Part shown: piece by piece, positions 21,303 through 33,467 of the stretch
How positions within the stretch are numbered: the stretch's first letter is position 1
Layout of the letters: each line of letters opens with the position of its first letter
DNA from: a virus
Lineage: Duplodnaviria; Heunggongvirae; Uroviricota; Caudoviricetes
Virus record (IMG/VR): IMGVR_UViG_2531839486_000019
Span: 1-38,567 of that record
Length of the DNA stretch: 38,567 nt
Strand: one strand, 5' to 3'
Program-made: the position numbers and the translations under genes
Notes under the pieces: generated by a model
Database searches by the model: none
What the model saw: the letters and a program-made list of their open reading frames with translations, nothing else
Told to the model about the DNA's origin: nothing

Positions 21303-21595
21303 TCCTGTTCACTGGCCTCTTTGGCCATCTTCAAATACTGTTCAGGGCAATGCGCCATAACGCGCTGAAACAGTTCCAGCGCCAGATTGCGTTGCCCCTC
21401 ATTAAATGCCATTGCCATAGCGTCCATCGGTGATATAGCGGAAAACACACGGCCTTTCTCCAGCACCGACCAGACAACGCGACGCCCCTGTTCACTGCTC
21501 ATGACAAAGCGAATGTCATCAATTTCACGCTGCGCCATGTCACGTTGCTTACGGGCGTTTTCTTCTTTCAGTTGATCGTCTTCGTAATCTGTCAT
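21299..21595 (-). CDS. hypothetical 98-aa protein between portal and scaffold genes
   Basis: ATG overlaps portal stop and its own stop overlaps the scaffold start. Confidence 0.5.
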   Translation of the reverse strand: MTDYEDDQLKEENARKQRDMAQREIDDIRFVMSSEQGRRVVWSVLEKGRVFSAISPMDAMAMAFNEGQRNLALELFQRVMAHCPEQYLKMAKEASEQE

Positions 21596-23271
21596 TGTGA
21601 TTGCCCACCCTGACCACTAACTGCATTCGCCATAGCTGACAAAACACTCGGATCCGAAGTTTTAGCTTCGCTTAGCGTCTTGGCACCCTGTGCCGCCGCC
21701 ATCCCCATCGCCATCATTTGTTGCTGCTGTTGTTGCTGTGCCCGTTGCTGGCGAGCCTGCTCAACCTGTTCCTGCGGAACAATGACGGTTGGAGACACTC
21801 CGGACATATCAGCGAATGCATCGATCGCCTGATCAACGTTGAGTTTGTCGAGAGCTTCTGGTTTCGCTTGCGCAAGTTGACCAATGAAGTTGACCGTAGA
21901 CGCCAGACTGGACAGGCCGATAGACTTCTGCGCCTGAGCCATGACGGAAATGTATTCGACCTTCAGGGGCATACCTTCCATCGCGTCAGGCGGTGGCGGC
22001 AGCATGTTTTTACGCACCATCATCGAGAAAGCGCGGTCAATGAGAGGATTAAGACATTCGTCGTTCAGACGCTCCAGAACCGGACCCAACATCAGAAGTT
22101 TTTCTTCTTTCATTTCGATCACCGCTTCAACAGGCATCGAGCGGGTATTGATGTTCTGCAACATCATGAACAGATCGACAAAGTAGGCGCTGTTAATGAT
22201 TTGACGAGTGTCCTGAATGTCTGCTACCAGATCTGCTGTACTGGGGTTAACCAGATAAGCAGGCCTGAAACCATCCTGACCAGTAATCTGATCGATATAC
22301 GTGATGTCGCCAGGAAGAAGGGAGGCGCGCTGATTCTTGAGGGAAGTCGGAGCAACCATCGGCGGATTGGTGGCTTTATCAATCAACTGCGACTTGCGCT
22401 TCTGGAGAAGCTGCAATGCCTTAACAGGTCCAAGCGCCAGCATACCCGGGCATGATGATCCATAAACATCTTCGCCGTTAACTTCCCAGCGCGGAGCCAT
22501 AATTGGAAACTCATCGAATCCGGACTCACGCAACAACTTGTCGTTATCGCCACCAACCTCGTAATAAACCGATTTGAATGGCTTGTTCTTGCTATCCAGC
22601 TTCGATGTATCGCGGTCAATGTTCGGGTAAACCGAATGCATCACTTCAATCCACTTCTCGTAGGTGCCGCTTTCCCACATGCTTTTTACGGATTCGCTGA
22701 CGTTATTTAGTCCGAATTCCTGAACAAGCTGACGAACAGTCATAGAGAACTTGCGAAAACAGGTGTCCACACTGCCACGAGGTGAGTTAGCCAGGTAGTA
22801 ACTTCCTATCGGGAATGGCATTGTACGAATGATGTCCTCGTCATCCTCCAGCACCGCCATTGCACCGGTGCTGTATGTGCCGAGGCTTCCGTATAACTGC
22901 GGCAGCGACTGATAGAGATTCGACTTATTGAACATATCGTTCATGCGGTTCTGCACTGCCTCAAGCCACAACTTAACAGGGCCATAATCCATCATTTCAG
23001 GATCTGGCGTAGCCAGGCGAAACCACGGACGCGCGGGGCTTGTGATGCCTGACATCATGCCGCTGGCGAGAGTGCGCGCCGCCATAGTCCCGGTCGAATC
23101 AATAATGCGTGTATTGCGTCGATCGTTACGGTTGACCTCAGAAGTCAGAAAGCGGGAACCACGCGGGTTGATGTAATCACTCAACTCGCGCCAGTGCGGC
23201 TCGAACGACTGACGCTCGCTTTCAAGTTGTGCGAACTGTTTGTTCAATCGCTCTTTAGTTGTTTCCGCCAT
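21592..23271 (-). CDS. portal (head-to-tail connector) protein, podovirus type
   Basis: 559 aa; ATG 23269-23271 with RBS GGAG 8 nt upstream; poly-Gln/Ala C-terminal tail; sits after the terminase genes. Confidence 0.85.
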   Translation of the reverse strand: MAETTKERLNKQFAQLESERQSFEPHWRELSDYINPRGSRFLTSEVNRNDRRNTRIIDSTGTMAARTLASGMMSGITSPARPWFRLATPDPEMMDYGPVKLWLEAVQNRMNDMFNKSNLYQSLPQLYGSLGTYSTGAMAVLEDDEDIIRTMPFPIGSYYLANSPRGSVDTCFRKFSMTVRQLVQEFGLNNVSESVKSMWESGTYEKWIEVMHSVYPNIDRDTSKLDSKNKPFKSVYYEVGGDNDKLLRESGFDEFPIMAPRWEVNGEDVYGSSCPGMLALGPVKALQLLQKRKSQLIDKATNPPMVAPTSLKNQRASLLPGDITYIDQITGQDGFRPAYLVNPSTADLVADIQDTRQIINSAYFVDLFMMLQNINTRSMPVEAVIEMKEEKLLMLGPVLERLNDECLNPLIDRAFSMMVRKNMLPPPPDAMEGMPLKVEYISVMAQAQKSIGLSSLASTVNFIGQLAQAKPEALDKLNVDQAIDAFADMSGVSPTVIVPQEQVEQARQQRAQQQQQQQMMAMGMAAAQGAKTLSEAKTSDPSVLSAMANAVSGQGGQSQ

Positions 23272-23285
23272 TTCAATGACTCCGG

Positions 23286-23492
23286 TTACTGACCAAGCAG
23301 CGTTTTACCGCTGGTATTAGCGGTTGATGTGTCGCCCTGAGAACCGGTAAGCAGCGTAGAACTACGACCAGCAGCAGCGCGACGGCGACGAGTTTCTTCG
23401 TCGCGGGCATCAACAACGGCGGCATCCTGCTCCTGTGGTGCTGCCTGAACTTCTGGTGTTGCAGGCACTGACGGTGAGCTACCCATGCACAT
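23286..23492 (-). CDS. hypothetical small acidic low-complexity protein upstream of portal
   Basis: ATG 23490-23492 with GGAG 8 nt upstream; low-complexity sequence, so weakly supported. Confidence 0.3.
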   Translation of the reverse strand: MCMGSSPSVPATPEVQAAPQEQDAAVVDARDEETRRRRAAAGRSSTLLTGSQGDTSTANTSGKTLLGQ

Positions 23493-23560: not shown

Positions 23561-23597
23561 TTGACATTTAACGCACAAATTATTACCTTTCAGGTAA
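23561..23597 (+). promoter_or_regulatory. candidate plus-strand promoter with operator-like dyad driving the tRNA operon
   Basis: perfect -35 TTGACA (23561-23566); dyad TTACC-TTTCA-GGTAA (23583-23597) over the -10 region; exact -10 hexamer ambiguous. Confidence 0.4.
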
Positions 23598-23919
23598 GCA
23601 AAGGGTTCATTCCGGTTATTAACCTGACTGGCTTGTCGTTAAATTGAACAGGTGGAGTGAGCTTTTATTTTGAGCAGTACGGCGTATGGCACATGCGCCG
23701 ATAGCGGTCTGGATACGTTTAAGGGGCACCCTCCCTTGCTCGGGCAAACGAACCAGGTAGCCGGAATGTGCAAGTCGAGCGGTTTTATTCCGCGCACGGG
23801 GATTCACCATCCCGGCGATTCGGTGTGACACCTCGGAAGAGACGAGGGTACAACGATGAGAGCATTTATGGAGCCGCGACAAAGTGTGGCGCCTTAACAG
23901 GCTAAGTGCTCTCAGCGTT

Positions 23920-23996
23920 GTGGCATTAGCTCAGTTGGACAGAGCAACCGCCTTCTAAGCGGTTGGTCGCAGGTTCGAATCCTGCATGCCACGCCA
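23920..23996 (+). tRNA. tRNA-Arg (anticodon UCU), phage-encoded
   Basis: 77-nt cloverleaf: acceptor GTGGCAT/ATGCCAC, D-stem GCTC/GAGC, anticodon stem ACCGC/GCGGT with loop CTTCTAA, T-arm GCAGG-TTCGAAT-CCTGC, discriminator G, encoded CCA. Confidence 0.85.
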
Positions 23997-24039
23997 GAAT
24001 CACGCCTAAGGACCGTGATGCCAGAAGTTCCAGGTGCTT

Positions 24040-24081
24040 GGCGGTGATGGTTTCCCTTGAAGGACTATCACCGCCCTTTTT
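24040..24081 (+). terminator. rho-independent terminator downstream of the tRNA
   Basis: stem ggcggtgat (24040-24048) / atcaccgcc (24067-24075) followed by CTTTTT. Confidence 0.5.
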
Positions 24082-24159
24082 ACAGCAGGACGCCATTGCG
24101 ATGACTTCATGCTGTAAACCCGTACAGCCACGGAAGGCATAACTCATTGCTTCCAGTTC

Positions 24160-24183
24160 GCCCGGTTCGCCGGGCATTTTTTT
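24160..24183 (+). terminator. second terminator-like hairpin ending 12 nt before the 123-aa gene start (attenuator candidate)
   Basis: stem gcccgg / ccgggc with ttcg loop, then A + TTTTTTT (24177-24183); RBS AAGGTGAGA follows directly. Confidence 0.45.
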
Positions 24184-24194
24184 AAGGTGAGATT

Positions 24195-24566
24195 ATGAAC
24201 GACCAGCAAATCGAAAAAGAAATCGTTGAGAAAGGAAAAACGGCACCGCGCGTTACGCCAGACCATATCGAAGGCATTATTGCTCAGGAGGCATATTTCA
24301 CAGCAGAAGATGGTGCCTTTGGCAAAGCCATAAAAGCGAAACATACTGGCGGAGAGGTAAACTACCAGCCGCACGAATCACTTTCTCTGCTGACGTTCTG
24401 CGTCCTGGTACTGCGCAACGGCTTCACCGTCACCGGAGAGAGTGCCTGTGCAAGTCCGGAAAATTTTGATGCAGAAATTGGTCGGAAGATTGCCCGGCAG
24501 AATGCTGTAAACAAAATCTGGATGCTCGAAGGTTACTTGCTGAAGCAGAAGCTAAGCGAGCAATAA
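24195..24566 (+). CDS. hypothetical 123-aa protein (cargo gene co-oriented with the tRNA)
   Basis: ATG 24195 with RBS AAGGTGAG 5 nt upstream; TAA at 24564-24566; terminator downstream. Confidence 0.6.
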   Translation: MNDQQIEKEIVEKGKTAPRVTPDHIEGIIAQEAYFTAEDGAFGKAIKAKHTGGEVNYQPHESLSLLTFCVLVLRNGFTVTGESACASPENFDAEIGRKIARQNAVNKIWMLEGYLLKQKLSEQ

Positions 24567-24586: not shown

Positions 24587-24614
24587 AGCCAGCCGATGAG
24601 CTGGCTTTGTTTTA
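24587..24614 (+). terminator. rho-independent terminator of the plus-strand cargo gene
   Basis: stem agccagc / gctggct, loop cgatga, then TTGTTTTA. Confidence 0.6.
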
Positions 24615-24656: not shown

Positions 24657-26132
24657 TTAAGCATACGGGTCATAATCTGTGATGGCCTTGCCTTGCTGGT
24701 TCTGCTGCCCAGGAATTCGCAGACGCTTCGACACAGGGAAAGCAAACGTCAGCAGTAGCGCATCGCCTTTACCCGGCGAACGCCCAAGTCGCTCTTTGAT
24801 ATCTTCCTTCGGTTCGATAACGATTTTACCGTCCACTCGAACTTTATACTCTGCCGCCGACAGGTCGTCCGCTGTTTCCTGGTCATCCAGCATCCCGCCG
24901 AGCCTCAGCCATGTCTTACATGAGTTGAACATCTCCCCACGCTTGTTAAGCATCTGCGGGTCAGTGGACGCACCGCCGAACGGAACAAGTTGCCATGTAC
25001 GTCCCCAGCCATCACCGATTGACTTCAGACCAGTTCCGTAACCGAAGTCGATGAACACTGCGTCAGCCTGGTACTGGTCTTCAAAGTCAGCGATACGCTT
25101 CGCCATTATCAGATCGTCAGTGGTCTTGTTGCCAGTCCATAGCACCTTACTATGCAACCCCTGCCGCAGGTATATCACCGCGTCATCAACGCCTGAATAT
25201 GCCGGGTCAACACCGATTATCACCGGAGCATGTGCCACCTGCGCAGCGGTTACCACCCGTTTCATTGCCTCATCAGTAAGACCGGTAGGGATAAACTGCA
25301 ATTCAGATGCATCAGGGAATATGCCGCGCACACGGATTTTAACGAAGTCGCTGTCTTCCCCGTAGTCATCAACCCATTTCTGCAACTGCTGTTTGTTAGT
25401 ACCTTCCACCGTCCGGCTGTCTATCTGCGCACACTTCCAGCGGTGCTTGTATTTGCGGAAGCATTCACGGAATCGCCCGGTATTACGCGTCGGGTTTCCG
25501 AACGCCACCCAAATAATCTCAGTGTCTTCGTCCGTAAGCGCACCCTCAGCAACTTCCCACACCAGATCCGCAATGTTCGACGCTTCATCAAACACCACGA
25601 TGATGCGTTTGCGCTCGTTGTGTAGTCCCGCGAACGCCTCAGTGTTGTGCTCAGACCAGGGGATTGCGTCAGCTCGCCACCGCTTGTCGTGCCCAGGATC
25701 ATTGCTGTACATCGCGGTAGCGGTACAGGTAAACCAGTCTTTCGTGATAGCAAGGTTCGACCACTTGATAATTTCCGGCCAGGTCTTCGTTCGTAGCTGG
25801 TTGTCGGTGTTGGCGGTCACCACGACCTTACAATCCTCGCAAGTGGACATGCCCCAGTTGATCAGCATTGAGATGAATGCGGATTTACCAATACCGTGAC
25901 CAGAAGCGCGTGCCAGCATAAGCGGCTGATAACGCGTCTCTGGATTCTGCAGGTGATCACGTATCTCTCGGAACGCATCGGCCTGCCACTGACGTGGGCC
26001 GGTAGCATGTGCCAGTTCAGTCCCCTCTTCCCCCCACGGGAACGCATAGAGGGCATAGCCAAGCGGATCGTGAGTGAACCCTGCAATATCCTCGATTAAC
26101 TGCTCTTCAGGAGATAACGCTGTATCTGTCAC
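24657..26132 (-). CDS. terminase large subunit
   Basis: 491 aa with N-terminal ATPase (Walker A-like GHGIGKS) and C-terminal nuclease-like region; GTG start overlaps small-subunit stop (GTGA). Confidence 0.9.
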   Translation of the reverse strand: MTDTALSPEEQLIEDIAGFTHDPLGYALYAFPWGEEGTELAHATGPRQWQADAFREIRDHLQNPETRYQPLMLARASGHGIGKSAFISMLINWGMSTCEDCKVVVTANTDNQLRTKTWPEIIKWSNLAITKDWFTCTATAMYSNDPGHDKRWRADAIPWSEHNTEAFAGLHNERKRIIVVFDEASNIADLVWEVAEGALTDEDTEIIWVAFGNPTRNTGRFRECFRKYKHRWKCAQIDSRTVEGTNKQQLQKWVDDYGEDSDFVKIRVRGIFPDASELQFIPTGLTDEAMKRVVTAAQVAHAPVIIGVDPAYSGVDDAVIYLRQGLHSKVLWTGNKTTDDLIMAKRIADFEDQYQADAVFIDFGYGTGLKSIGDGWGRTWQLVPFGGASTDPQMLNKRGEMFNSCKTWLRLGGMLDDQETADDLSAAEYKVRVDGKIVIEPKEDIKERLGRSPGKGDALLLTFAFPVSKRLRIPGQQNQQGKAITDYDPYA

Positions 26133-26725
26133 TGATTACCATCCTGACGTTCTTTGAGTCGCTTCCTGGCTGCTGCTATGCGATCAGCAATTGTCACATT
26201 CACATTAACATCCAGACGTTCTTTGAACGCGTTGACATCAACATGCTTACCAATCAGCTCAAGGTTCTTCACCTTGTCCGGCCATTTGATTTTTTTGAGG
26301 ATTGTCTCTATCGAATCCTCGTTCATGTTCATGATGGTCGATGACAGATCAAAGCCGCTAAGCGTAGTGCGCCAGATTTTCGGCCACTCGCGGATTGGTT
26401 TAAGGCTCCCATCGTCGTTGAGGATGTCGATCACGTCCATCTGGTCGATCTCCACCAGGCGCATGAGAACGTAATCAGCACTGACGCGCATTCGTTTGTT
26501 GCGTTCCTCCATCAGCTCGGCAATCCGTTTCTGAATGCGTTCATCTCGCATCATGACACTGGCTTTAACTGCCGCTGTATTTGGGGAGAATCCTGCGTTA
26601 ATCGCTGCCTGAGTCTGGTTTTCAGGCGTTTTGATGTATGACTGGCAATAAGCCTCCTGCATTGCTGTTAGTGGCTTAAATTGCGTTGATTTGCGTTTAT
26701 AGGTTTTAGTTTCAGCAGGCATCAT
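26129..26725 (-). CDS. terminase small subunit
   Basis: start moved to ATG 26723-26725 (MMPAETK...); the upstream 26 track codons translate a tandem DNA repeat and are unlikely coding. Confidence 0.7.
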   Translation of the reverse strand: MMPAETKTYKRKSTQFKPLTAMQEAYCQSYIKTPENQTQAAINAGFSPNTAAVKASVMMRDERIQKRIAELMEERNKRMRVSADYVLMRLVEIDQMDVIDILNDDGSLKPIREWPKIWRTTLSGFDLSSTIMNMNEDSIETILKKIKWPDKVKNLELIGKHVDVNAFKERLDVNVNVTIADRIAAARKRLKERQDGNQ

Positions 26726-26732
26726 AACCACC

Positions 26733-26764
26733 GTGGTAATAGTTACCGTTGTGGTAATAGTACC
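26733..26764. repeat. tandem direct repeat GTGGTAATAG(T)TACC x2 immediately upstream of the terminase small gene
   Basis: copies at 26733-26747 and 26751-26764; each is itself a GGTAA...TTACC dyad. Confidence 0.6.
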
Positions 26765-26768
26765 ATGC

Positions 26769-26794
26769 AAAATAAAGCCGCCATAGTTGGCGGC
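26769..26794 (-). terminator. hairpin plus T-run (minus strand) just upstream of the terminase operon
   Basis: stem gccgcca / tggcggc with tagt loop; on the minus strand it is followed by TTTATTTT. Confidence 0.45.
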
Positions 26795-26843
26795 AGTATT
26801 CAAAACACATCAAATTCATCATGCATAATCTACTCGTGACATG

Positions 26844-27185
26844 TCACACTATTAATTTCGTTTCATGCCAGCCTTTAGTCACCCAGCATTGCGAGTCACC
26901 ATTACACGGGCATGAATTAACTGGAACTCTCTCGCCGCACTTACCGCAACGTTTTCTGCTGATCGATTTTATACGCCCGCGCACGCGTGCATCATCCTGG
27001 CGGATCAGTAACGCTATATACTCACCAAATTCGTAAGGCGCACGCCCGGGGCGACGCGTGGCACAGTTACGCTCCAGCATTTCAATTTCCTGAGCATCAA
27101 GCACAATCTCCAGCTTACGCACACCAGATGCAGCTTGTCTGGCTCTCTGAGCGGCTTTGCGCTCTGCTGCTGATTTAGCCATCAA
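26844..27185 (-). CDS. Cys-rich zinc-finger protein; candidate late-gene regulator (position of lambda Q)
   Basis: 113 aa; basic N-terminus and C-terminal cluster CGKCGERVPVNSCPCNGDSQC; last early gene before the terminases. Confidence 0.5.
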   Translation of the reverse strand: MMAKSAAERKAAQRARQAASGVRKLEIVLDAQEIEMLERNCATRRPGRAPYEFGEYIALLIRQDDARVRGRIKSISRKRCGKCGERVPVNSCPCNGDSQCWVTKGWHETKLIV

Positions 27186-31334: not shown

Positions 31335-32131
31335 GCTTCAGGGCTGTTCCAGTGCGGAACGTTGTTATCAGGTAATGTTGATTGCTTCTGTCTGCTAATC
31401 TGCAGCCTCCTTGCCAGCTTCTGCTCCCACTGTGCCTGATGGTATGCCTTACCCTCAGCCATCCAGTAAATTCTGAACTCTGCAAGTTCCTGTGCCGTTG
31501 GCAGACTGTCCAGGTAGATCCCCTGCAATGAGCTTTTCCGAAGAAAGTCATCTGATGGCTGCCATTGTTCATGCATGACAAATTTGCCTAATTGCCCTGG
31601 CCCACCAGGAGGAACAAAGTTATTCATCACGGCGTTGTTTGCGCCGGGGTCATGAGGCACAGAATCCCCGCTTTTTGTCCTGCTCTCCCTCTCTTGGTTA
31701 AATGACTGGTTATATGACTGGTTCTGGATCCCGTTTTTGGGATCATTCAACATCCCGTTTTTGGGATCATTCAACATCCCGTTTTTGGGTATATTCCCGT
31801 TTTCGGGTATATTCCCGTTTTCTGGTTCATTGCCCCCCTCCCGGTTGCCTTTAATGTTCCCGTTTTTGGTTATATTAAGAGAGAAAACCCGCACTCTTTT
31901 TGTCGCTCCCTTTCTATCTCCGGTATCTGAAATAAGCCCCATTTTCATGAGCGATATAAGCCCGGCCTGCACGGTTTTTTTATTCAGGCAAGTGTCTTTA
32001 ACGAGTCGTTCTATGCTGGGGTAGCAGAGGTTATATTCATCGGCTCTGTCAGCCATCGAGAGCAGTATGAGCTTTAATGATGAGCTGCCTGGATCTGTCT
32101 CCCAGGCCCAATCTGTTGCATGTCTGCTCAT
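31316..32131 (-). CDS. replication initiator (lambda O-like) with origin iterons inside the gene
   Basis: N-terminal HTH-like domain, central peptide repeats (NGNIPENGNIPKNGMLNDPKNGMLNDP) encoded by DNA iterons, followed by the P-like gene. Confidence 0.7.
   Translation of the reverse strand: MSRHATDWAWETDPGSSSLKLILLSMADRADEYNLCYPSIERLVKDTCLNKKTVQAGLISLMKMGLISDTGDRKGATKRVRVFSLNITKNGNIKGNREGGNEPENGNIPENGNIPKNGMLNDPKNGMLNDPKNGIQNQSYNQSFNQERESRTKSGDSVPHDPGANNAVMNNFVPPGGPGQLGKFVMHEQWQPSDDFLRKSSLQGIYLDSLPTAQELAEFRIYWMAEGKAYHQAQWEQKLARRLQISRQKQSTLPDNNVPHWNSPEAWEDFL
31703..31890. repeat. putative origin of replication: iteron array plus AT-rich tract
   Basis: ATGACTGGTT x2 (31703-31724); GGATCATTCAACATCCCGTTTTTG x2 (31741-31788) with partial copy at 31727-31740; GGTATATTCCCGTTTTC x2 (31789-31825); CCCGTTTT core six times; AT-rich 31871-31890. 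Confidence 0.65.
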
Positions 32132-32497: not shown

Positions 32498-32728
32498 TCA
32501 TGAGTAGAAGAAGTATGCCAGTTCTGCTTTTGAGCGCAGCCATTGTCTTGTTTTACAGGCTTTAAAAAGCCCATTCATCAATACCTTACCTGGCATTTTG
32601 CGCTTACCTGTTAAGTGAGTCTGGATATAGTGACTCGTCGTTCCGGCTTCCTGTGCGAAGGCTTCACGCTCATCCGGAGTAAGTGCAAGCCAGTGCTTTT
32701 TGAAATCGAAATGTCCGTTATCGCTCAT
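32498..32728 (-). CDS. Cro-like HTH regulator (YdaS/Cro family)
   Basis: 76 aa, ATG 32726-32728; HTH-like segment DEREAFAQEAGTTSHYIQTHLTGKR; divergent from the CI-like gene. Confidence 0.6.
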   Translation of the reverse strand: MSDNGHFDFKKHWLALTPDEREAFAQEAGTTSHYIQTHLTGKRKMPGKVLMNGLFKACKTRQWLRSKAELAYFFYS

Positions 32729-32882: not shown

Positions 32883-33467
32883 ATGAAAAGTATCCAGGAC
32901 GTCCGCAGGCAAAATCTCAACGACTTGATCGACCGTGAATTCAATGGTGTTCAGACGCGGATGGCAGAAAAACTTGGAACTCAGGCAAATCTGGTAAACC
33001 GCTGGGCTCTTGGCAAGAAGGTTATCGGCGACCAGGTTGCGCGAAAAATTGAAGCTGCCGCCAATAAACCCCGTAACTGGCTTGATATCGATCGCTCGCT
33101 TTCTCAGGAAGGTTTTCAGCCTGTCGGCCCAAGCGACATTGGTCAGCTGGCGGCTCACAACCTGGAACGCTGGATGAGCGAAAGCCGCGACCTTTCAACA
33201 CAGGGAAAACTTCACCGCGCATCCGGCGTCGCCCAGGTGACAATCAGCCGCCTGTTAAACAATGAGGTCAGCGTTTCCATTTCCACCCTGGAGAATGTTG
33301 CATCTGCATTCGGGCGTCACGGATATGAACTACTGATTCACCCGCACGACCCTGCAACTATCAACTATGACCGCTCGCGCTACGCATTATTACCTGAAAC
33401 CGAGAAAGCAAAGATCGAAAGTTACATTGAATTTGTCATCAACCAGAACGAAAAAAACAAACAATAA
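32883..33467 (+). CDS. CI-like repressor candidate with HTH domain(s) and no recognisable LexA/S24 cleavage domain
   Basis: XRE-type HTH (GVQTRMAEKLGTQANLVNRWALGKK) and a second HTH-like stretch; no Ala-Gly/Ser-Lys peptidase motifs seen; divergent from Cro-like gene. Confidence 0.55.
   Translation: MKSIQDVRRQNLNDLIDREFNGVQTRMAEKLGTQANLVNRWALGKKVIGDQVARKIEAAANKPRNWLDIDRSLSQEGFQPVGPSDIGQLAAHNLERWMSESRDLSTQGKLHRASGVAQVTISRLLNNEVSVSISTLENVASAFGRHGYELLIHPHDPATINYDRSRYALLPETEKAKIESYIEFVINQNEKNKQ

What the first reader, a model, noticed from the sequence alone, without database searches (positions are those of the whole stretch)
24160..24197. Terminator-like hairpin 12 nt upstream of the 123-aa gene start
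A GC stem (gcccgg/ccgggc) followed by seven T residues ends at 24183, and the RBS AAGGTGAGA plus ATG 24195 follow directly. A full intrinsic terminator this close to a start codon suggests either conditional read-through (attenuation) from the tRNA promoter or a separate promoter I could not identify. It is the second of two tandem terminators after the tRNA.
Basis: seen in the sequence. Interest (0 to 1): 0.4.

Follow-up and report, generated by a model that had tools for sequence, protein, structure and literature searches.

The report
Conserved terminator gating anti-defence gene slot
The hairpin is a real, evolutionarily conserved transcription terminator in a phiV10/epsilon15-like prophage; together with the ribosome-binding site and start codon that follow it, it forms a fixed docking point at which related phages swap small, mostly anti-defence genes, but it shows no sign of being a switchable attenuator.

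Summary
GCCCGG-UUCG-CCGGGC (24160-24175, -12.7 kcal/mol), then A+U7 (to 24183), SD AAGGUGAG and ATG 24195 are as described. Only 3 sites of this quality occur in the window, against 0 in 40 shuffles.

The window is a phiV10/epsilon15-like (Uetakevirus) prophage. The hairpin (T2) is the second of two terminators in a + strand island lying antisense between terL and the portal operon. The island runs: repressor-operated promoter (TTGACA 23561, operator 23583-97), a 320-nt structured leader, tRNA-Arg(UCU), T1, an invariant 44-nt hairpin block, T2, SD-ATG, cargo, T3.

Across about 130 related loci from E. coli, Salmonella, Klebsiella and Enterobacter phages, T2 keeps its stem (two compensatory pair changes) and its U7. 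In 99 of 129 loci the SD and ATG follow directly, but at least 9 unrelated ORF families start at that ATG. They include Acb4 (the 123-aa gene here, PF13876, anti-CBASS) and Tad2 (anti-Thoeris). In 28 loci a repressor-operated promoter with its own cargo follows T2 instead.

No antiterminator structure, leader peptide or intervening promoter exists. T2 is best read as an intra-operon terminator and insulator. Promoterless cargo is expressed by read-through, either passive or factor-assisted. This is an ordinary element in an interesting anti-defence gene slot.

The parts
23561..23589 (+). Promoter P(+) of the island: -35 TTGACA (23561-66), 17-nt spacer, -10 TACCTT (23584-89)
   Evidence: Read in the sequence. 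Conserved in divergent relatives. Present with its operator in 112 of 116 loci. The strict tool scan did not report it because the -10 matches only 3 of 6 positions. Function is inferred.
23583..23597 (.). Operator palindrome TTACCTTTCAGGTAA overlapping the -10 of P(+)
   Evidence: The motif TTACC-N5-GGTAA has 13 sites with at most 1 mismatch in the window, against 0.56 expected. Three of them lie between the divergent cro-like and cI-like genes. The homologous site is annotated as 'repressor' in the epsilon15 record.
23598..23919 (+). Conserved, strongly structured leader between P(+) and the tRNA
   Evidence: MFE -121.3 kcal/mol, z = -3.5, 0 of 100 shuffles fold as well. Conserved blocks across genera. 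No Rfam match.
23920..23996 (+). tRNA-Arg (anticodon TCT)
   Evidence: ARAGORN. Rfam tRNA 73 bits. Present in 80 of 116 related loci. Absent from epsilon15 through a deletion between repeats.
24040..24081 (+). T1: first terminator, a 14-bp stem followed by CUUUUU
   Evidence: -24.2 kcal/mol for 24030-24090. The stem covaries at 4 pairs with changes on both sides.
24077..24120 (+). Invariant 44-nt block TTTTTACAGCAGGACGCCATTGCGATGACTTCATGCTGTAAACC, forming hairpin P1 (UUUACA 24079-84 pairs with UGUAAA 24113-18). Function unknown.
   Evidence: Most conserved stretch of the locus in BLAST-derived relatives. 12 invariant pairs and 1 covarying pair. Also present in lambdoid Klebsiella phages.
24132..24154 (+). 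P2: variable small hairpin between the block and T2
   Evidence: Folds. Differs between E. coli, Salmonella and Klebsiella types. Deleted in L165 without loss of T2. Not in the RNAalifold consensus.
24160..24183 (+). T2 (the finding): stem GCCCGG/CCGGGC, loop UUCG, then A and U7. A unidirectional intrinsic terminator.
   Evidence: 100% paired in 49 non-redundant sequences, with two compensatory pairs (GC to AU and GC to CG in 14 of 49). No U-tract on the - strand. The orthologous hairpin is annotated as a rho-independent terminator in epsilon15.
24184..24197 (+). Conserved linker: SD AAGGUGAG, 3-nt spacer and ATG. This is the docking point for swapped ORFs.
   Evidence: 99 of 129 loci have an SD-ATG linker directly after the U-run. 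At least 9 unrelated ORF families start at that ATG.
24195..24566 (+). Cargo: 123-aa Acb4-family (PF13876, 'Gp49/gene 66') protein, a predicted anti-CBASS cyclic-nucleotide sponge
   Evidence: Pfam PF13876 E = 8.6e-35. PDB 9E4W Acb4 E = 0.006. PF13876 is equated with the Acb4 family in bioRxiv 10.1101/2024.12.30.630793 and 10.1101/2025.07.12.664507.
24587..24606 (.). T3: hairpin shared by the convergent cargo gene (+) and terL (-). U-rich tails on both strands, weaker on the - strand.
   Evidence: Annotated as a - strand rho-independent terminator in phiV10.

Best explanation
T2 is a genuine, selectively maintained, unidirectional Rho-independent terminator. It is the last element of a conserved + strand accessory transcription unit that lies antisense between terL and the portal operon of a phiV10/epsilon15-like prophage. 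The unit starts at a promoter whose -10 is covered by the prophage repressor's operator, so it should be silent in the lysogen and fire on infection or induction. It then runs through a structured leader, tRNA-Arg(UCU), terminator T1, an invariant hairpin block and T2. T2, its U-run, a strong SD and the ATG form a fixed socket. Related phages carry unrelated small ORFs at exactly that ATG, chiefly anti-defence sponges (Acb4 here, Tad2 elsewhere). These ORFs have no promoter of their own. They are therefore made only from the fraction of P(+) transcripts that read through T1 and T2. T2 thus does two jobs. It ends the abundant tRNA/leader RNA, and it acts as a fixed valve and insulator that sets a lower transcript level for the cargo. 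The U-rich tract plus the SD probably make the read-through mRNA well translated. Where the cargo brings its own repressor-operated promoter, T2 simply insulates it from upstream transcription. Shown here: the anatomy, the conservation, the covariation, the cargo swapping, and the absence of an alternative structure or nearby promoter. Inferred: actual termination, its efficiency, promoter activity, repressor control and translation enhancement.
For: Terminator anatomy and rarity.

Conservation with compensatory changes: 73-84% identical relatives from four host genera keep the stem, and GG/CC becomes AC/GU in Salmonella types.

U-run length has a mode of 7 and a range of 5-10.

The sequence diverges exactly after the U-run or after the ATG. 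99 of 129 loci have SD-ATG with at least 9 unrelated ORF families, and 28 of 129 have an operator-bearing sigma70-like promoter plus other cargo.

The hairpin does not travel with the gene.

The upstream promoter and operator are conserved in 112 of 116 loci, with or without the tRNA. Operator identity rests.

In epsilon15 the tRNA and half of T1 are deleted, so T2 is the only terminator between P(+) and its Acb4-like gene, and it is annotated as a terminator there.

No competing structure was found. T2 has no terminator function on the - strand. T2 strength is the same in both cargo classes.
Against: No transcript data exist for any of these phages, so termination and read-through are inferred.

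Two good terminators in front of a sponge protein, which should be needed in quantity and early, sit awkwardly with purely passive leak. That favours the factor-assisted rival.

The P(+) -10 (TACCTT) is weak and the tool's own promoter scan did not call it.

The two stem alleles look like one ancestral double change spread by recombination (for example L172, L200, L231). The covariation is therefore only one or two independent events.

The related loci were collected by a pattern in the neighbouring block, which biases the sample toward intact modules.

The extreme conservation of the 44-nt block is not explained by this model.
Confidence: 0.55

Rival explanations
1. T2, like the other terminators that punctuate this phage's operons, is overridden by a phage-encoded processive antitermination mechanism (N-, Q- or put-like). 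Cargo expression would then be switched on fully only once that factor or RNA element has modified RNA polymerase. T2 would be a temporal gate and not a fixed valve.
For: Terminators sit inside or in front of operons throughout the window. One follows the cro-like gene (32476-32457, - strand). One lies directly upstream of TerS (26794-26777, - strand), preceded by a promoter-like site (26847-26818) and by a phrog_536 'transcriptional regulator' gene; this layout resembles lambda Q-PR'-tR'. One follows terL (T3). Sponge proteins are expected to be needed in amounts that two tandem terminators would hardly allow (inference). The long conserved, structured leader and the invariant block could carry a cis-acting site.
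Against: No protein in the window matches a known antiterminator family. No motif of at least 10 nt is shared among the leaders of the operator-controlled promoters, and only one weak boxA-like string was seen. The invariant block lies downstream of T1, so it could not rescue T1 read-through.
Confidence: 0.25
2. The primary role of T2 is to form the 3' end (stem plus U-tail, a typical Hfq-binding module) of a conserved non-coding RNA made of the invariant block, P2 and T2. This RNA would be either processed from the tRNA/leader transcript or separately transcribed. The gene start behind it is secondary.
For: The 44-nt block is more conserved than any flanking sequence, folds as a hairpin and has one covarying pair. 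The whole T1-block-P2-T2 module also occurs in a lambdoid Klebsiella phage in front of a different gene. The architecture of two or three stem-loops ending in a terminator is sRNA-like, and there are weak sub-threshold Rfam sRNA hits at 24107-24183.
Against: No promoter was found between T1 and the block (manual inspection). The Rfam hits are far below threshold (18 bits against a gathering score of 55). P2 is variable and can be deleted (L165). A decayed copy in KO-TP1 suggests the module is dispensable outside its normal context. This model does not explain the conserved SD-ATG linker.
Confidence: 0.1
3. T2 is a classical cis-acting attenuator, that is, a conditional terminator controlled by an alternative antiterminator fold, a leader peptide or a ligand or protein sensor in the 85-nt spacer.
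For: A terminator lies in the 5' leader of a gene that has no promoter of its own. A 13-codon ORF (24101-24142) ends 18 nt before the stem.
Against: T2 pair probabilities are 0.96-1.0 in six transcript contexts and the best competitor reaches 0.024. When the 3' arm is withheld, the 5' arm finds only a weak, non-conserved partner. The small ORF lacks an SD, and its length and frame vary between relatives. The apparent pairing of the P2 loop with the SD is no better than shuffled controls (median p 0.54). The element is the same in front of at least 9 unrelated ORF families and in front of promoter-bearing cargoes.
Confidence: 0.04

Closest known systems
The rho-independent terminator stem-loop annotated in Salmonella phage epsilon15 (AY150271.2, 2559-2582) directly upstream of its PhiV10p03-like gene
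   Same: This is the orthologous element. It has the same position, the same U-run, the same SD-ATG linker (AAGGTGAAAATCATG) and an Acb4-family gene behind it.
   Different: The stem allele is GCCCAC/GUGGGC. The epsilon15 locus has lost the tRNA and the 5' half of T1. The annotation is a prediction only, and the record does not discuss how the downstream gene is expressed.
Internal (intercistronic) partial terminators that set expression ratios within an operon, such as the E. coli rplL-rpoB attenuator, and tRNA-protein co-transcription units such as thrU-tyrU-glyT-thrT-tufB (from my own knowledge)
   Same: An intrinsic terminator lies between an abundantly needed upstream RNA or gene and a downstream gene that has no promoter of its own. 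Downstream expression depends on read-through.
   Different: Here there are two terminators in tandem. The downstream ORF is a swappable accessory gene, and the unit is under a phage repressor operator. No read-through measurement exists.
Phage morons (HK97/HK022 concept: an extra gene flanked by its own promoter and terminator, inserted between conserved genes; from my own knowledge)
   Same: A variable extra gene sits between conserved neighbours (terL and the portal operon). It is transcribed independently of, and here opposite to, the flanking operon and ends at its own terminator T3. The 28 promoter-type cargoes fit the definition fully.
   Different: The cargo in this window and in 99 of 129 relatives has no promoter of its own. 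It uses a shared upstream promoter and a fixed SD-ATG behind a terminator.
Lambda-type terminators read through by N or Q antitermination (tR1, tR'; from my own knowledge)
   Same: A strong intrinsic terminator is placed between a repressor-controlled early promoter and downstream genes. The rest of this phage shows a similar punctuated layout.
   Different: No N/Q homologue, nut or qut site was found.
Phage anti-defence gene loci and hotspots carrying nucleotide-sponge genes (Acb4, Tad2; bioRxiv 10.1101/2024.12.30.630793 and 10.1101/2025.07.12.664507)
   Same: The slot carries Acb4-family and Tad2-family genes in different phages at the same position.
   Different: Those papers define the proteins, not this locus. 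The regulatory architecture described here (operator-promoter, tRNA, double terminator, fixed SD-ATG) is not described there.

Membership tests
Rho-independent (intrinsic) terminator | GC-rich stem-loop of about 5-14 bp with a short loop | tested here: met
   6 GC pairs, UUCG loop, -12.7 kcal/mol.
Rho-independent (intrinsic) terminator | U-tract immediately 3' of the stem | tested here: met
   A plus U7 at 24176-24183. The mode is 7 U in about 130 relatives.
Rho-independent (intrinsic) terminator | Stem maintained by selection (compensatory changes) | tested here: met
   100% of cells are paired. Two pairs change on both sides in 14 of 49 sequences. This probably reflects only one or two independent events.
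Rho-independent (intrinsic) terminator | RNA 3' ends and termination at the U-tract in vivo or in vitro | not testable with these tools
   No transcript data were found in the literature.
Cis-acting transcription attenuator (terminator/antiterminator switch) | Terminator located in the leader of the regulated gene | tested here: met
   The terminator ends 11 nt before the ATG and no intervening promoter exists.
Cis-acting transcription attenuator (terminator/antiterminator switch) | Mutually exclusive alternative (antiterminator) structure | tested here: not met
   T2 pair probability is at least 0.96 and the best competitor reaches 0.024. None appears in the consensus fold.
Cis-acting transcription attenuator (terminator/antiterminator switch) | Sensor: conserved leader peptide, known riboswitch or protein-binding RNA | tested here: not met
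   The small ORF has no SD and a variable frame and length. There is no Rfam family. A protein-binding role for the invariant block cannot be excluded.
Phage moron | Extra gene present or absent, or replaced, between conserved neighbours in related phages | tested here: met
Phage moron | Own promoter immediately upstream of the gene | tested here: not met
   Not met for the gene in this window: only 11 nt separate the U-run from the ATG. It is met in the 28 promoter-type relatives.
Phage moron | Own terminator downstream | tested here: met
   T3 at 24587-24606.
Acb4 anti-CBASS sponge family (for the 123-aa cargo) | Sequence membership in PF13876 | tested here: met
   E = 8.6e-35, 119.5 bits against a cut-off of 27. 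PDB 9E4W E = 0.006 over the core.
Acb4 anti-CBASS sponge family (for the 123-aa cargo) | Binding of cyclic oligonucleotides and inhibition of CBASS | not testable with these tools
   Shown for SPO1 Acb4 and selected homologues in bioRxiv 10.1101/2024.12.30.630793, not for this protein.
Hfq-type small RNA ending at T2 | Own promoter or defined processing site giving a discrete short RNA | tested here: inconclusive
   No sigma70-like promoter lies between T1 and the block (manual inspection). Processing cannot be assessed.
Hfq-type small RNA ending at T2 | Match to a described sRNA family | tested here: not met
   The best match is RyhB at 18.1 bits against a gathering score of 55, E = 1.1.
Processive antitermination system (N/nut, Q/qut, put) | Recognisable antiterminator protein or cis RNA/DNA site | tested here: not met
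   An unrecognised type cannot be excluded.

The most novel reading that the evidence does not exclude
The invariant 44-nt block, P2 and T2 together form a previously undescribed phage regulatory RNA module. It could be a cis-acting element that controls terminator read-through, or a trans-acting small RNA. It has been kept almost unchanged across phages of four enterobacterial genera. It moves between Uetakeviruses and lambdoid phages together with promoterless anti-defence cassettes. In that reading the terminator-SD-ATG junction is the functional docking site of a cassette-exchange system.
Probability: 0.12. Interest if true: 0.65.

Novelty: new member of a known kind. Interest (0 to 1): 0.38.

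Why it matters
The hairpin itself is an ordinary terminator, and its orthologue is already annotated in epsilon15. The value lies in the context it exposes. That context is a precisely bounded slot found in about 9% of complete E. coli genomes (504 of 5,426) and in related Salmonella, Klebsiella and Enterobacter phages. In this slot, promoterless small genes are exchanged behind a fixed terminator-SD-ATG junction and a repressor-controlled promoter. Two of the resident families are proven anti-defence sponges (Acb4, Tad2). The other residents are therefore concrete, testable candidates for new anti-defence proteins: phrog_4846 (about 200 aa), phrog_18493 (143 aa, Cys-rich), phrog_27507 (107 aa), two singletons, and a TM plus coiled-coil protein carried with its own promoter. 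The locus is also a compact natural test case for how much read-through two tandem terminators allow in a phage early unit, and whether this phage group uses antitermination.

Tried and rejected
(1) Anti-SD idea. The MFE of 24076-24200 paired the P2 loop CAUAACUCAUU with the SD and AUG, and all three backbone types seemed to have such complementarity. Duplex energies were no better than shuffled P2 sequences (window p = 0.24, median p = 0.54). Rejected.

(2) Antiterminator alternative to T2: none found.

(3) Leader peptide MTSCCKPVQPRKA (24101-24142): no SD, and its frame and length are not conserved.

(4) A sigma70, sigmaE or sigma54 promoter inside 24040-24195 on either strand: nothing convincing by tool or by eye. 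TAAGGT as a -10 would need GCCCGG as its -35.

(5) A shared nut-like motif among the leaders of operator-controlled promoters: none.

(6) Rfam, at gathering-like and permissive thresholds: only the tRNA.

(7) The genome-contig scan with a 16-mer was a mistake. The pattern was too short for 596 Gb, nearly all hits were chance, and only L120 was real. A first viral-contig scan failed because I miscounted a spacer, and the corrected scan worked.

(8) Literature. The epsilon15 genome paper was not retrievable. The ZX5 paper has no data on this locus. The neaT paper concerns another moron position. A Uetakevirus transcriptome search returned nothing relevant.

(9) PADLOC and Pfam on the uncharacterised cargoes gave no meaningful hits.

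Full report
OBSERVATION. It reads gcccgg-ttcg-ccgggc (24160-24175), A, seven T (24177-24183), AAGGTGAG, a 3-nt spacer and ATG at 24195. The terminator scan lists it with 6 GC pairs and a 4-nt loop. Alone it folds at -12.7 kcal/mol, with 85% of the ensemble in that structure. The loose tool pattern is not enriched locally (5 found against 3.7 expected). Under stringent criteria, however, only three sites exist in the whole window on both strands, and none in 40 dinucleotide shuffles. A tRNA-Arg(TCT) gene lies at 23920-23996. It is followed by a 14-bp hairpin plus CUUUUU (T1, 24040-24081). The finding is therefore the second of two tandem terminators.

CONTEXT. The window is a phiV10/epsilon15-like (Uetakevirus) prophage integrated next to guaA. 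The packaging and head genes run on the - strand: TerS 26129-26803, TerL 24657-26132, a small gp3-like gene 23286-23492 and portal 21592-23271. Between TerL and gp3 lies a 1.1-kb island on the + strand. It holds about 430 nt of non-coding DNA, the tRNA, T1, an 85-nt spacer, T2 and the 123-aa gene. It ends at a hairpin (T3, 24587-24606) shared with the convergent terL. The trailer with T2 is present in 504 of 5,426 complete E. coli genomes.

COMPARATIVE ANATOMY OF T2. I used relatives found by BLAST (73-99% identity; E. coli, Salmonella, Klebsiella and Enterobacter phages) and 119 IMG/VR contigs found with a pattern in the neighbouring conserved block. In all of these, T2 is nearly invariant. 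Of 134 loci with enough sequence, 130 keep a fully paired stem, two have one mismatch, one lost the 5' arm by deletion between GTTCG repeats (L247) and one lacks T2 (L192). There are two stem alleles: GCCCGG/CCGGGC and, in Salmonella-type sequences, GCCCAC/GUGGGC. That is two adjacent pairs changed on both sides. In a non-redundant alignment of 49 sequences the helix is 100% paired, with 14 sequences carrying the double change. Recombinants carry the Salmonella-type stem on an E. coli-type backbone (L172, L200, L231). The covariation therefore represents few independent events. The U-run has a mode of 7 and a range of 5-10. On the - strand the hairpin is followed by GAACUGG, so it cannot terminate the late, - strand transcription.

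THE JUNCTION IS A DOCKING POINT. Alignments diverge exactly after the U-run or after the ATG. In 99 of 129 loci the U-run is followed by an SD (mostly AAGGTGA) and an ATG 11-16 nt later. The ORFs that begin at that ATG fall into at least nine unrelated families:
- PF13876, as in the window (52 loci).
- A roughly 200-aa family, phrog_4846 (20 loci).
- A Tad2-like PF11195 family (7 loci).
- A 143-aa Cys-rich family, phrog_18493 (5 loci).
- phrog_27507 (2 loci), three singletons, and an 8-codon stub where the gene has been deleted (7 loci).

In 28 loci the U-run is instead followed at once by a sigma70-like promoter carrying the palindrome described below, for example ATGACC-N17-TATAAT with ATTACCTTAAAGGTA. 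Behind it lies an unrelated cargo, mostly a TM plus coiled-coil protein with no Pfam match. T2 has the same predicted strength in both classes: U-run 6.97 against 7.25, and hairpin -11.2 against -11.4 kcal/mol. The same PF13876 gene in a Stx2a phage (98% identical over the ORF) has no hairpin, T-run or AAGGTGAG upstream. T2, the U-run, the SD and the ATG therefore belong to the locus, and the ORF is a replaceable insert.

WHERE TRANSCRIPTION COMES FROM. No promoter fits in the 11 nt between the U-run and the ATG, and none was found between T1 and T2 (manual inspection). About 630 nt upstream of the ATG there is a perfect -35 TTGACA (23561-66), a 17-nt spacer and TACCTT (23584-89). This -10 is overlapped by the perfect palindrome TTACCTTTCAGGTAA (23583-97). 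The arrangement is conserved across genera. It is present in 112 of 116 loci with at least 1 kb of upstream sequence, whether or not they carry the tRNA (80 of 116 do).

The palindrome TTACC-N5-GGTAA occurs 13 times in the window with at most one mismatch, against 0.56 expected. Three copies lie between the divergent cro-like (32498-32728, -) and cI-like HTH (32883-33467, +) genes, which is the classical place for repressor operators. The epsilon15 record labels the homologous site 'repressor'. I therefore infer that the island is a repressor-controlled unit, silent in the lysogen and active early after infection or induction. In epsilon15 a deletion between two GTTCCCTTGATGCT repeats removed the tRNA and the 5' half of T1. 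P(+) is then followed by the leader, the block, T2 and its PF13876 gene, and the authors annotated T2 there as a rho-independent terminator.

IS IT A SWITCH? Four observations argue against a cis-acting attenuator.
- In six transcript contexts (from 24076, 23997, 23920 or 23600 to the U-run or the stem end) the T2 pairs have probabilities of 0.96-1.0, and the best competing pair reaches 0.024. With the 3' arm withheld, the 5' arm finds only a weak partner.
- The consensus fold of 49 sequences contains T1, the block hairpin and T2 and nothing that conflicts with T2.
- The 13-codon ORF in the spacer has no SD and differs in frame and length between relatives.
- The attractive pairing between the P2 loop and the SD and AUG is not better than shuffled controls.

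A trans-acting mechanism cannot be excluded. Terminators punctuate the - strand operons: after the cro-like gene, immediately upstream of TerS behind a promoter-like site and a phrog_536 regulator gene, and after terL. That layout recalls lambdoid antitermination. However, no known antiterminator family or shared nut-like motif was found.

WHAT THE CARGO IS. The 123-aa protein belongs to PF13876 (E = 8.6e-35). Two recent preprints equate this family with Acb4, a tetrameric sponge for CBASS cyclic oligonucleotides. It also matches the solved SPO1 Acb4 structure 9E4W in its core (E = 0.006). Another resident family is Tad2, the anti-Thoeris sponge. The slot is therefore used for anti-defence genes, which fits an early, repressor-controlled promoter.

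MECHANISM (best estimate). T2 ends the abundant tRNA/leader RNA and lets only a fraction of polymerases continue into the promoterless cargo. The U-rich tract and strong SD directly behind the stem should make that mRNA efficiently translated. For promoter-bearing cargoes T2 acts as an insulator. Shown: the anatomy, the conservation, the swapping, and the absence of cis alternatives. Inferred: termination, read-through level, promoter activity and repressor control. The main rival is that read-through is factor-assisted (probability about 0.25). An RNA-gene reading of block-P2-T2 (about 0.1) stays open mainly because the invariant 44-nt block is unexplained. The block also occurs with the whole T1-P2-T2 module in a lambdoid Klebsiella phage, in front of another gene on the strand opposite to the nin operon. 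A decayed copy occurs in KO-TP1.

COMPARISON AND VERDICT. The element meets all sequence-level criteria of an intrinsic terminator and fails the structural criteria of a cis attenuator. It resembles internal operon terminators (rplL-rpoB, tRNA-tufB type units) and the boundary terminators of phage morons. The gene in this window is not a full moron, because it lacks its own promoter. The hairpin is a new member of a known kind, and its orthologue is already annotated. The modest interest comes from the locus it delimits. That locus is a widespread, sharply bounded anti-defence cargo slot with a defined regulatory architecture and several uncharacterised residents.

Noticed in passing
window 24077-24120: A 44-nt block (TTTTTACAGCAGGACGCCATTGCGATGACTTCATGCTGTAAACC) is the most conserved stretch of the whole locus across phages of four host genera, more so than T1, P2 or the coding genes. 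It forms a hairpin with 12 invariant pairs and 1 covarying pair. No promoter, Rfam family or peptide explains it.
   Followed up: partly
window 3157, 3815, 6641, 23583, 26725, 26743, 30420, 30482, 32428, 32765, ~32792, 32813, 33526, 33588: A dispersed regulon of the palindrome TTACC-N5-GGTAA: 13 sites against 0.56 expected. Sites often come in pairs 48-62 bp apart, three of them in the cI/cro intergenic region. Several overlap a -10 element, or their right half (AGGTGA/AGGTAA) doubles as the SD of the next gene.
   Followed up: partly
window 26777-26847 (- strand): A promoter-like site (GTGACA-18-CATGAT) sits at the end of a phrog_536 'transcriptional regulator' gene (26844-27185). About 25 nt later comes a good terminator (GCCGCCAACTATGGCGGC plus UUUAUUUU), then two operators and the TerS start. 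The layout resembles lambda Q-PR'-tR' and suggests late-gene control by antitermination.
   Followed up: no
window 23598-23919: The 322-nt leader between the promoter and the tRNA is conserved across genera and folds far better than shuffles (z = -3.5). It includes a long stem (GAGAGCAUU/AGUGCUCUC) that brackets a variable insert just before the tRNA. No Rfam match.
   Followed up: partly
L010 (epsilon15) ~1452-1500 compared with L013 (SPN1S): Epsilon15 lacks the tRNA and the 5' half of T1 because of a deletion between two GTTCCCTTGATGCT repeats, one in the leader and one in the T1 loop.
   Followed up: yes
loci L120, L014, L191, L196, L197 and others (cargo directly after T2): Uncharacterised protein families occupy the same SD-ATG socket as Acb4 and Tad2: phrog_4846 (about 200 aa, 20 loci), phrog_18493 (143 aa, Cys-rich, 5 loci), phrog_27507 (107 aa) and two singletons. 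By their position they are candidate anti-defence proteins.
   Followed up: partly
L257 (Klebsiella phage ST11-VIM1phi8.2) 2470-2700; L259 (KO-TP1) 2470-2680: The T1-block-P2-T2 module also occurs in lambdoid phages, in the nin region on the strand opposite to the flanking operon and in front of other cargo. In L257 the T2 stem is remodelled to GCUC-GUCC-GAGC plus U7. In KO-TP1 the module is decayed.
   Followed up: partly
L177 (T2 loop) and L194 (T1 interior): Hairpin interiors are inverted in single loci. The T2 loop TTCG became CGAA, and the T1 loop with its inner stem is reverse-complemented. This is consistent with template switching or inversion at palindromes.
   Followed up: no
L001 3427-3678 (PhiV10p04), L004 1927-1995: Annotation errors in public records. 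phiV10, TL-2011b, ZX5 and EC.W1-9 annotate an 83-aa ORF antisense to the tRNA, T1 and T2 region, which is very likely spurious. phiv142-3 annotates the tRNA-Arg on the wrong strand.
   Followed up: no
window 31738-31781 (+ strand): Two identical 20-nt hairpin units (TGGGATCATTCAACATCCCG plus TTTTTGGG) sit in tandem, 24 nt apart, inside the replication-gene region. They may be origin iterons.
   Followed up: no
L004 and six IMG/VR loci, directly after T2: Where the Acb4-family gene has been lost, an 8-codon stub (MKYEFDGF) remains at the conserved SD-ATG and runs into T3. This shows that deletion respects the socket boundaries.
   Followed up: yes
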